A DNA stretch of 64,000 nucleotides from an uncultured Chromatiales bacterium. GTDB taxonomy: Bacteria > Pseudomonadota > Gammaproteobacteria > Poriferisulfidales > Poriferisulfidaceae. The translations under genes were made by a program, and so were the position numbers. The notes under the pieces are model-generated. The model was not told the DNA's origin, searched no databases, and saw only the letters and a list, made by a program, of their open reading frames with translations. Shown in pieces: positions 5,282 to 5,480 of the stretch. Every line of letters begins with the position of its first letter. Positions within the stretch are counted from its first letter, which is position 1. The stretch is from assembly GCA_964526195.1 (NCBI GenBank), contig CAZGIH010000003.1, positions 9,434 to 73,433 on the forward strand. The letters are read 5' to 3'.

Positions 5282-5480
5282 GATCGGTTGCACACATATA
5301 TCCGGCCTCTGGATGGGAGACTGTTCTCTCCCGGGCCACCATGGGTTTCGCACGCCCCGGCCTCATCACTTCATCGGCCTCGAAGGCCCATGCGCCTGTC
5401 AGGTTTCCGCAGCGTCGGTCCGACCTGTTCCGCCATGTTCCGCTTCGTCCCCGCAACCGATCGGCGGCCTCAGGCCGCCG
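5282..5480 (-). ncRNA. Bridge RNA / seekRNA of the IS1111 element
   Basis: 5' hairpin 5462-5480; 10-bp long-range stem (5282-5291 with 5453-5462); guides at 5391-5398 and 5367-5373 match the two strands of the target site; guides at 5312-5318 and 5295-5301 match the two strands of the circle junction. Confidence 0.85.

What the first reader, a model, noticed from the sequence alone, without database searches (positions are those of the whole stretch)
5282..5480. Fully decodable bridge/seekRNA: target and donor guides readable in the IS 3' non-coding region
Read on the minus strand. Target loop: CAGGCGCA (5398-5391) matches the plus-strand target CAAGCGCA at 7/8 (the mismatch is a G:T wobble). 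TGAAGTG (5373-5367) matches the minus-strand target TGAAG-TG at 7/7. A GGCCT/AGGCC hairpin separates them. Donor loop: TCCCATC (5318-5312) matches the left end (6623-6629), and ATATATG (5301-5295) matches right end plus core in the circle junction. A perfect 10-bp stem (5282-5291 with 5453-5462) encloses both loops (about 180 nt), preceded by an 8-bp hairpin (5462-5480). Four correctly placed core-spanning matches are unlikely by chance. This is a candidate new programmable recombinase with a CA/TG core.
Basis: partly seen in the sequence, partly recalled or inferred. Interest (0 to 1): 0.85.

Follow-up and report, generated by a model that had tools for sequence, protein, structure and literature searches.

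The report
IS1111-type insertion sequence guide RNA
The region is the guide ("seek"/bridge) RNA of an intact IS1111-type insertion sequence that has jumped into a TnpB gene; three of its four proposed guide segments are confirmed by comparison with about 60 relatives, but this kind of RNA-guided transposase has been known since 2024.

Summary
Together they are far beyond chance: all four matches appeared in 0 of 20,000 shuffles.

The region is the 3' non-coding part of a 1,396-bp IS110-family element of the IS1111 group (5235-6630, minus strand). The element has a 347-aa DEDD transposase and perfect 12-bp subterminal inverted repeats. It sits in a TnpB gene; removing it restores a 467-aa TnpB.

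[quoted passage not shown] 42 of its 50 base pairs show compensatory changes.

- **Target guides:** 5398-5391 and 5373-5367 lie in the only two hypervariable blocks of the RNA. They track each copy's own flanks (permutation 0/20,000).
- **Left-donor guide:** 5301-5295 equals the right end plus core, with sharp 7-nt borders and three covarying positions.
- **Right-donor guide:** A site at about 5347-5341 covaries with the left end but pairs only 5 bp in this copy.

Verdict: a real, apparently intact RNA-guided IS and a new member of a known kind (Siddiquee 2024, Durrant 2024). NCBIfam already names the protein an "IS110 family RNA-guided transposase".

The parts
5235..6630 (-). Complete IS1111-type insertion sequence. 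It is 1,396 bp counting one copy of the TG/CA core (6629-6630).
   Evidence: Joining 5234 to 6631 restores a 467-aa TnpB with a full TNB domain. Contigs of run X5 skip exactly 1,396 nt (5232->6629, 2-nt ambiguity). Contigs of multi-copy populations break at 5233 and 6630.
5498..6541 (-). Transposase gene, 347 aa. It carries D16, E59, D96 and D99 and the motif GLVPRQASTG (255-264).
   Evidence: Pfam PF01548 + PF02371. NCBIfam NF033542 at 338 bits against a cut-off of 140. These residues are invariant in 22 homologues.
6612..6623 (-). Left subterminal inverted repeat ATGGTTCGTCCC. It is preceded by the 5-nt left-end extension ATGGG (6628-6624) and the core TG (6630-6629).
   Evidence: Perfect 12-bp inverted repeat (I11); sequence read.
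5238..5249 (-). Right subterminal inverted repeat GGGACGAACCAT. It is followed by the 3-nt extension ATA (5237-5235) and the target-side core TG (5234-5233).
   Evidence: I11.
5282..5462 (-). Guide RNA (long seekRNA / bridge RNA), 181 nt, enclosed by the 10-bp stem P1 (5462-5453 with 5291-5282).
   Evidence: Model R1 scores this site 204.9 bits and finds full-length homologues behind 79 of 80 relatives' transposase genes. 89.7% of cells are paired and 42 of 50 pairs show changes on both sides.
5462..5480 (-). 8-bp hairpin directly after the stop codon.
   Evidence: There is one compensatory change among close relatives.
5391..5398 (-). Right-target guide CAGGCGCA, on the 5' side of the 12x12 target loop (5400-5389). 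It pairs with the IS-top strand of core + right flank (TG-CGCTTG; 7 Watson-Crick pairs + 1 G:T).
   Evidence: Hypervariable block in an NCR that is otherwise about 88% identical. Own flank 4.85/6 versus 2.75/6 for other flanks; permutation 0/20,000. Empty-site alleles read CAGGCGCA, a perfect 8/8 match. The variant IS in X4/X5 has CAGGCTCA next to flank AGCCTG.
5376..5388 (-). Capping hairpin GGCCU-UCG-AGGCC between the two target guides.
   Evidence: Invariant in the close relatives. All five pairs of the homologous helix show compensatory changes in distant relatives (helix 9).
5365..5373 (-). Left-target guide TGAAG + core TG (5373-5367), followed by AU (5366-5365) that equals the first two left-end bases (handshake-like).
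   Evidence: The five flank positions match the copy's own flank in 74-94% of 34 guide families, falling to 24% or less beyond them. The next two columns follow left-end bases 1-2 at 85%, including A->C.
5295..5301 (-). Left-donor guide AUAUAUG. It equals the last 5 nt of the right end plus the core TG.
   Evidence: Identity with the copy's own right end is 85-100% across the seven columns (94-100% for the first six, 85% at the second core base). Covariation is seen at three columns (T/T 24 with C/C 23; T/C/A; G/A/T). Identity is 0-2% at the four columns 5' of it and about 22% 3' of it. Its core equals the left-target guide's core in 35 of 39 families.
5312..5318 (-). It is a 7-nt complement of G + ATGGGA, but its function is doubtful.
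   Evidence: Present. It overlaps hairpin 5332-5327/5320-5315, which is kept by compensatory changes. It shows no family-wide signal and has two changes in L005/L006 although the left end is unchanged.
5341..5347 (-). Alternative right-donor guide AACCCAU (3' strand of helix P2 plus neighbours). Only CCCAU (5345-5341) pairs with ATGGG in this copy.
   Evidence: These columns covary with left-end positions 3 and 4 (C:G 28 / U:A 18; C:G 25 / U:G 9 / U:A 11; never C:A). Own 6.21/8 versus 5.33/8 for other ends.
5254..5259 (-). TTGCAG, the putative -35 of a circle-junction promoter. 17 nt downstream, TATGAT would form across the joined ends.
   Evidence: Read from the sequence. Inferred by analogy with the junction promoters described for IS1111/IS110 elements (PMC11187229; reference).
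4063..5234 (+). 5' part of the interrupted TnpB (IS605-family OrfB) gene. The 3' part is 6631-6862.

Best explanation
Positions 5282-5462 (minus strand) encode the guide RNA of an intact IS1111-group, IS110-family insertion sequence (5235-6630). The RNA is most likely transcribed with, or just behind, the transposase mRNA.

It folds into a P1-closed structure with two recognition modules.

**Module 1, target loop.** This is a 12x12 internal loop capped by the GGCCU/AGGCC hairpin.
- Its 5' side (CAGGCGCA) pairs with the IS-top strand of core + right flank.
- Its 3' side (UGAAG-UG, then AU) has the sense of left flank + core + the first two left-end bases, so it pairs with the bottom strand.
- This top-then-bottom order is the one reported for IS1111 seekRNAs.

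**Module 2, donor side.** It lies around the P4/P5 hairpin. AUAUAUG, in the multiloop, has the sense of right end + core.

The DEDD transposase bound to this RNA would bring the circularised element (junction ...CCATATA-TG-ATGGG...) to the DNA site xxTGAAG-TG-CGCCTG and recombine at the TG core. Here that site lies in the zinc-ribbon coding part of a TnpB gene.

**Shown here:** the element's anatomy, the RNA structure's covariation, the guide-flank and guide-end covariation, and the empty site.
**Inferred:** transcription, processing, protein binding and the strand-exchange chemistry.
For: - **Family:** Pfam and NCBIfam hits, DEDD residues and the S/T-G motif. Perfect 12-bp subterminal repeats. 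A 263-nt non-coding region downstream of the gene, against 89 nt upstream.
- **Boundaries:** joined flanks give a full TnpB. Empty-site contigs skip exactly 1,396 nt.
- **RNA structure:** R1 finds full-length homologues in 79 of 80 relatives down to about 45% protein identity, and in an IncC plasmid element. 89.7% of cells are paired against 31-39% for slid controls; 42 of 50 pairs are compensatory; 0 of 500 shuffles reach this. G:U changes occur in P1.
- **Target guides:** they are the only hypervariable blocks of the RNA. The left-target guide matches its own flank at 74-94% over exactly 5 nt. The right-target guide scores 4.85 versus 2.75 of 6; both permutations give 0/20,000.
- **Natural reprogramming:** a variant about 97% identical in runs X4/X5 carries changed guides, and its right flank matches the changed guide 8/8. 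Empty-site alleles match the window's guide 8/8.
- **Left-donor guide:** sharp 7-nt identity with three covarying columns. The same core is encoded in the left-target and left-donor guides in 35 of 39 families.
- **Chance in the window alone:** 0 of 20,000 shuffles.
- **Literature:** the architecture and guide order match PMC11187229 and PMC11208160.
Against: - No expression or binding data exist. Only DNA runs or runs of unknown type held the sequence.
- Rfam 15 has no matching family, so there is no independent curated model.
- For ISEc11 a short seekRNA lacking the donor part was sufficient for transposition (PMC11187229). Donor reading by RNA is therefore unproven for IS1111 elements.
- The right-donor guide is ambiguous. 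In this copy the family-supported site pairs only 5 bp.
- Alignment A4 was fitted to the model, which inflates the pair counts somewhat.
- The relatives share ancestry, so permutation values are not strict probabilities.
Confidence: 0.9

Rival explanations
1. The target loop is a true RNA guide, but the donor-side matches are not RNA guides. The ends would be recognised by the protein through the long subterminal repeats. The internal ATATATG would be a DNA-level copy of the end, for example a second protein-binding or alternative end site.
For: The short ISEc11 seekRNA without the 3' part supports transposition, and the authors state that end recognition is unknown. The left-donor guide is identical to the end, not complementary, so a DNA direct repeat would give the same covariation. 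The right-donor position is unclear.
Against: The identity has sharp 7-nt borders that end exactly at the core. Its core dinucleotide tracks the core in the left-target guide in 35 of 39 families. The segment sits in an unpaired multiloop stretch in the same register as the left-target guide in its loop. Durrant et al. report donor-binding nucleotides in multiloops of IS1111 bridge RNAs.
Confidence: 0.15
2. The reader's site UCCCAUC (5318-5312) is the working right-donor guide in this clade, rather than the P2 3'-strand site.
For: It is 7 nt complementary to G+ATGGGA in the window and in L001, and 8 nt (UCCCAUCA) in L002-L004. That is better than the 5-6 bp available at 5347-5341 in the same clade. 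A 7-mer match occurs in about 2% of shuffles.
Against: Four of its bases are in a hairpin stem kept by compensatory change (GGGAGA/UCUCCC to GGGAGG/CCUCCC). L005/L006 carry UCCCACCG with an unchanged left end, yet are multi-copy. Family-wide there is no signal: 4.64 versus 4.50 of 8. Clades such as L027 have nothing complementary there.
Confidence: 0.3
3. The four matches are coincidence in a GC-rich, structured 3' UTR or terminator region.
For: Short 7-8-mers are involved. Each occurs alone in 0.1-2% of shuffles.
Against: All four together occur in 0 of 20,000 shuffles. The guide columns covary with flanks and ends in dozens of independent insertions. A reprogrammed variant has a matching flank.
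Confidence: 0.01

Closest known systems
IS1111-group seekRNA elements (ISEc11, ISPa11, ISKpn4, ISPst6; Siddiquee et al. 2024, PMC11187229)
   Same: - DEDD transposase of about 340 aa with a GL-P----S/T-G motif.
- Subterminal inverted repeats.
- Long non-coding region downstream of the gene.
- An RNA with one segment complementary to the top strand lying 5' of one complementary to the bottom strand, overlapping at the insertion point.
- Natural reprogramming between relatives.
- The P1-enclosed RNA (181 nt) is close to the reported long form (145-172 nt).
   Different: - The transposase is below 60% identical to any element in PLSDB plasmids (best listed 52%; 48% for the IncC plasmid element fetched). 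The closest relative overall is 82% identical, in a Ca. Porisulfidus MAG.
- The target is new: the TnpB zinc-ribbon coding sequence.
- No experimental data exist for this element.
- The validated seekRNA sequences could not be obtained, so direct homology to them was not tested.
IS621 / IS110-group bridge RNA (Durrant et al. 2024, PMC11208160; Hiraizumi et al. 2024, PMC11208158)
   Same: - One RNA reads both strands of the target, and apparently of the donor, around a shared 2-nt core.
- The guide that has the sense of the left flank runs 2 nt into the donor end, like a handshake guide.
- The same core is encoded in target and donor guides.
   Different: - The RNA lies in the right end, not the left end.
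- The order of the guides is reversed.
- The donor guide sits in a multiloop rather than a simple internal loop.
- The subterminal repeats are long (12 bp).
- The core is TG rather than CT.
Relatives in sponge-symbiont MAGs (L001-L006, Ca. Porisulfidus)
   Same: Same RNA scaffold (88% identical), the same ends and the same TG core.
   Different: Different guide blocks and different insertion sites (four further guide sets).

Membership tests
IS110 family, IS1111 group | DEDD (RuvC-like) N-terminal domain plus the PF02371 C-terminal domain | tested here: met
   PF01548 at 79.6 bits and PF02371 at 76 bits. NF033542 at 338 bits against a cut-off of 140.
IS110 family, IS1111 group | Catalytic D-E-D-D and the conserved GL-P----S/T-G motif | tested here: met
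   D16, E59, D96, D99, S262 and G264 are invariant in a 22-sequence alignment. The motif GLVPRQASTG lies at 255-264.
IS110 family, IS1111 group | Subterminal inverted repeats of 7-17 bp with short terminal extensions | tested here: met
   Perfect 12-bp repeat at 5238-5249 / 6612-6623, with extensions of 5 nt (left) and 3 nt (right).
IS110 family, IS1111 group | Long non-coding region downstream of the transposase gene and a short left end | tested here: met
   263 nt downstream (5497-5235) against 89 nt upstream (6630-6542).
IS110 family, IS1111 group | Sequence-specific, oriented insertion without a long target duplication | tested here: met
   The empty site differs by exactly 1,396 bp with a 2-nt ambiguity. 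Several copies of the relatives sit in similar sites.
IS110 family, IS1111 group | Circular intermediate with a junction promoter | not testable with these tools
   Joining the ends would give TTGCAG-N17-TATGAT. No circle-junction contig was seen.
seekRNA / bridge RNA | Conserved structured RNA encoded in the non-coding end | tested here: met
   Full-length model hits in 79 of 80 relatives. Covariation in 42 of 50 pairs.
seekRNA / bridge RNA | [quoted passage not shown] | tested here: met
   5398-5391 (pairs with the top strand) lies 5' of 5373-5367 (pairs with the bottom strand).; the order is as in PMC11187229.
seekRNA / bridge RNA | Guides change with the target in relatives (natural reprogramming) | tested here: met
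seekRNA / bridge RNA | Donor-binding guides matching both element ends | tested here: inconclusive
   The left-donor guide is clearly supported. The right-donor guide has two candidate sites, neither decisive for this copy.
seekRNA / bridge RNA | The RNA is made, binds the transposase and is required; reprogramming redirects insertion | not testable with these tools
   No RNA run of known type holds the region. This needs bench work.
Rfam-curated RNA family | Match to a curated covariance model | tested here: not met
   No relevant hit at E <= 10 in 4800-7000. Rfam 15 gave no match for this RNA.

The most novel reading that the evidence does not exclude
In IS1111-type guide RNAs the right-donor guide may not be a free loop. 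It may be the 3' strand of helix P2, held by a 5' strand that mimics the left-end DNA.

Three sites covary together: the P2 5' strand, the P2 3' strand and the left-end extension. Donor binding would then require a helix-opening switch.

In most clades the left junction also carries an A where all guides and the right junction specify G or T at core position 2. This built-in asymmetry could bias insertion against excision. The window clade, with TG on both sides and a second left-end complement at 5318-5312, would be a variant of that design.
Probability: 0.2. Interest if true: 0.55.

Novelty: new member of a known kind. Interest (0 to 1): 0.3.

Why it matters
- It adds a well-delimited, apparently active IS1111-type RNA-guided recombinase from an uncultured sponge symbiont.
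- Its guide code can be read directly from natural variation: 6 + 2 nt for the right target, 5 + 2 (+2) nt for the left target and 5 + 2 nt for the left donor.
- The family alignment built here gives a covariance model for an RNA class that Rfam did not detect. It also provides a natural reprogramming series useful to anyone engineering IS1111-type systems.
- It raises two testable questions about IS1111 donor recognition: where the right-donor guide lies, and what the left-junction core asymmetry means. The published work leaves donor recognition open.
- It does not reveal a new kind of system.

Tried and rejected
- **Rfam:** a scan of 4800-7000 at E <= 10 gave only noise hits.
- **Within the window:** no second copy of the IS, no second RNA and no second target-like site with up to 3 mismatches.
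- **Public collections:** blastn against complete E. coli genomes found no match. blastn against PLSDB found nothing covering 80% or more of the element. The experimentally validated ISEc11 and ISKpn4 RNAs could therefore not be fetched for direct comparison.
- **RNA evidence:** only runs of unknown type hold part of the region.
- **First transposase alignment:** it picked wrong ORFs and was redone.
- **Fixed-register scoring of the right-target guide:** it gave only about 50% per position, because the loop register shifts by 1-2 nt between clades. Scoring was repeated with the same freedom given to the controls.
- **Chance explanation:** considered and rejected.

Full report
**1. What is in the sequence**

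On the minus strand, 6541-5498 encodes a 347-aa protein with the two Pfam domains of IS110-family transposases (PF01548, PF02371). It scores 338 bits (cut-off 140) on NCBIfam NF033542, "IS110 family RNA-guided transposase". D16, E59, D96 and D99 and the GLVPRQASTG motif are invariant in an alignment with 21 homologues.

A perfect 12-bp inverted repeat (6623-6612 ATGGTTCGTCCC; 5249-5238 GGGACGAACCAT) lies 5 nt and 3 nt inside the ends. The non-coding stretch is 89 nt upstream and 263 nt downstream of the gene. These are the defining traits of the IS1111 group (PMC11187229; PMC11208160).

The element interrupts a plus-strand TnpB (IS605 OrfB) gene. Joining 5234 to 6631 gives an open 467-aa TnpB. 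Its zinc-ribbon motif reads ...CAECGHVDKDNRKEQAHFKCLACGHTDNADLNAARNIL... Its TNB-domain score rises from 24.4 bits (partial) to 58.5 bits (full length).

The inserted unit is therefore 5235-6630: 1,396 bp with one copy of a TG (plus-strand CA) dinucleotide that stands at both junctions. Public sponge-metagenome assemblies confirm this independently:
- Contigs of run X5 skip exactly 1,396 nt (5232->6629, 2 nt ambiguous).
- Contigs of populations where the element is multi-copy break at 5233 and 6630.

**2. The observation**

In 20,000 dinucleotide-preserving shuffles of the non-coding region, each match alone occurs in 0.14-2.2% of shuffles. The two target matches occur together in 8 shuffles, and all four in none.

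**3. The RNA**

RNAalifold on the window plus five close relatives gives the following structure:
- A closing stem P1.
- A helix P2 (CAUGG/CCAUG).
- An 8-bp helix P3 leading to a symmetric 12x12 internal loop, capped by GGCCU-UCG-AGGCC.
- A second hairpin unit: GGCC...GGCC enclosing GGGAGA/UCUCCC.

The close relatives already show compensatory and G:U changes.

A covariance model of this structure (R1) finds one hit in the window, at 5278-5466 (minus strand). [quoted passage not shown] L080 gave a partial hit and L016 gave none. R1 also hits an IS110-family element on a Citrobacter IncC plasmid (59.5 bits).

On that alignment 89.7% of cells are standard pairs, against 31-39% when partners are slid. 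42 of 50 pairs show changes on both sides, and no shuffle of 500 reaches the observed values. The alignment was fitted to the model, which favours the structure somewhat, but the margin is large.

**4. Target guides**

Among the close relatives the non-coding region is about 88% identical, except for two blocks that flank the invariant capping hairpin. Each copy's blocks fit its own flanks.

| Copy | Right-target guide | Left-target guide | Left flank | Right flank |
|---|---|---|---|---|
| L001 | UAUAUCCA | ACGAGUG | CATGAG-TG | TG-GATGCA |
| L003 | AUUUGAUA | UUAUCGUG | TTATTG-TG | TA-TCAAAC |
| L043 | CUUUUGGCA | - | - | TG-CCAAAAG |

Across 34 guide families:
- The five columns homologous to 5373-5369 equal the copy's own left flank in 74-94% of families. 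This drops to 24% or less further out.
- The columns homologous to 5396-5391 pair with the copy's own right flank at 4.85 of 6, against 2.75 of 6 for other families' flanks, with the same register freedom for both.
- Permuting flanks among families never reached the observed totals (0/20,000 in each test).

Three further results fit:
- The next two columns after the core on the 3' side (AU, 5366-5365) follow the first two left-end bases, including the A->C change in the CTGAG clade. The guide thus reads the post-insertion left junction, as a handshake guide does in IS621.
- Runs X4 and X5 carry a variant of this very element, about 97% identical. Its differences include 5370, 5369 and 5393, turning the guides into UGAGAUG and CAGGCUCA. 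The flank attached to its right end reads AGCCTGAAGG, a perfect 8/8 fit to the changed guide.
- Uninterrupted TnpB alleles in runs X4, X5 and X10 read GGAGCAGGCG|CACTTCAAG. The window's guide CAGGCGCA therefore fits the common allele 8/8, and the G:T in the window is a flank variant.

The order is as published for IS1111 seekRNAs: the segment pairing with the top strand lies 5' of the one pairing with the bottom strand.

**5. Donor guides**

The columns homologous to AUAUAUG (5301-5295) are identical to the copy's own right end (last two repeat bases + 3-nt extension + 2-nt core) in 85-100% of 47 families. That is 94-100% for the first six columns and 85% at the second core base. Three columns covary:
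- T/T 24 with C/C 23.
- T 37 / C 5 / A 2.
- G 22 / T 14 / A 4.

Identity is 0-2% at the four columns 5' of the segment and about 22% 3' of it. The core written in this segment equals the core written in the left-target guide in 35 of 39 families (TG, TT, CG, TA, AG). This is what a shared-core recombination mechanism predicts.

- Four of its bases belong to the hairpin stem GGGAGA/UCUCCC, which changes to GGGAGG/CCUCCC in relatives.
- L005 and L006 carry UCCCACCG with an unchanged left end.
- Family-wide, this region fits the copy's own left end no better than foreign ones (4.64 versus 4.50 of 8).

The 3' strand of P2 and the bases just 5' of it do covary with the left-end extension:
- Position 3: C:G 28, U:A 18.
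- Position 4: C:G 25, U:G 9, U:A 11, never C:A.
- Own 6.21 versus 5.33 of 8 for other ends.

In many clades this gives 8-9 bp (for example UUCCAUCA with TG-ATGGAA). This site also mirrors the target loop's geometry: guide, hairpin unit, then the same-sense guide 12 nt before the closing helix. In the window, however, only CCCAU (5345-5341) pairs.

There is a general caveat. For ISEc11, a short seekRNA lacking the donor part sufficed for transposition, and end recognition in IS1111 is stated to be unknown.

**6. Mechanism proposed**

The steps below are inferred by analogy with PMC11187229, PMC11208160 and PMC11208158.
- The element excises as a circle. The circle junction CCATATA-TG-ATGGG would create the promoter TTGCAG-N17-TATGAT.
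- The transposase mRNA and the downstream RNA are transcribed, and the RNA is trimmed.
- The RNA-protein complex pairs the target loop with both strands of xxTGAAG-TG-CGCCTG and the donor segments with the joined ends.
- The strands are exchanged at TG.

The anatomy and the covariation are shown here. Transcription, binding and chemistry are not.

**7. Comparison and novelty**

This is a member of the IS1111 group and carries the seekRNA/bridge RNA described in 2024. Every sequence-level defining feature was met. Expression, binding and reprogramming could not be tested.

What is new:
- The element itself. The closest relative has 82% protein identity (L001, a Ca. Porisulfidus MAG). No PLSDB plasmid or complete E. 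coli genome holds a near copy.
- Its target, the TnpB zinc-ribbon coding sequence.
- The clade-wide read-out of guide lengths.

It is not a new kind of system.

**8. Limits**

- No RNA-seq run of known type holds the region.
I reproduced that independently.

Noticed in passing
L007-L080 left junctions (e.g. L008, L018, L027, L028); window 6629-6630 for contrast: In almost all clades other than the window's, the left junction reads core base 1 + A (TA|ATGG, CA|ATGG, AA|ATGG). Both same-sense guides and the right junction specify TG, TT, CG or AG. Only the window clade and L043 have the same dinucleotide on both sides. In those other clades the joined ends would read TATAAT. This may be a built-in core asymmetry; it is unexplained.
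   Followed up: partly
window 5437-5433 with 5343-5339 (helix P2), and left end 6628-6624; homologous columns in A4: Three sites covary together: the P2 5' strand (GAUGG or GAUGA), the P2 3' strand (CCAUC or UCAUC) and the left-end extension (ATGGx or xTGAG). The 5' strand of P2 looks like an RNA mimic of the left-end DNA.
   Followed up: partly
window 6545-6559 with 6606-6620: A 15-nt, 93% complementary inverted repeat pairs the left subterminal repeat with the bases just upstream of the transposase start codon (6541). It could mask translation initiation.
   Followed up: no
L005:2820-3416: The right flank of this copy is the middle of another copy's transposase gene, and a second full RNA hit follows at 3227-3416. 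The element has inserted into, or recombined with, a copy of itself.
   Followed up: no
window about 52700-53800, minus strand: A second, diverged TnpB homologue (31% identity to the interrupted one) is present. It does not carry the target sequence.
   Followed up: no
window 6601-6635 in run X11: A contig shares the left end plus only CTTCA of the flank and then diverges. This fits a left-target guide that reads just 5 nt. It rests on a single low-depth contig, so it is only suggestive.
   Followed up: no
window 5235-6630 in runs X4, X10, X11 against X1-X3: Assembler depth over the element is several times that of the flanks in some sponge samples, but about equal to the flanks in the samples that best match the window. 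Copy number therefore differs between populations.
   Followed up: partly
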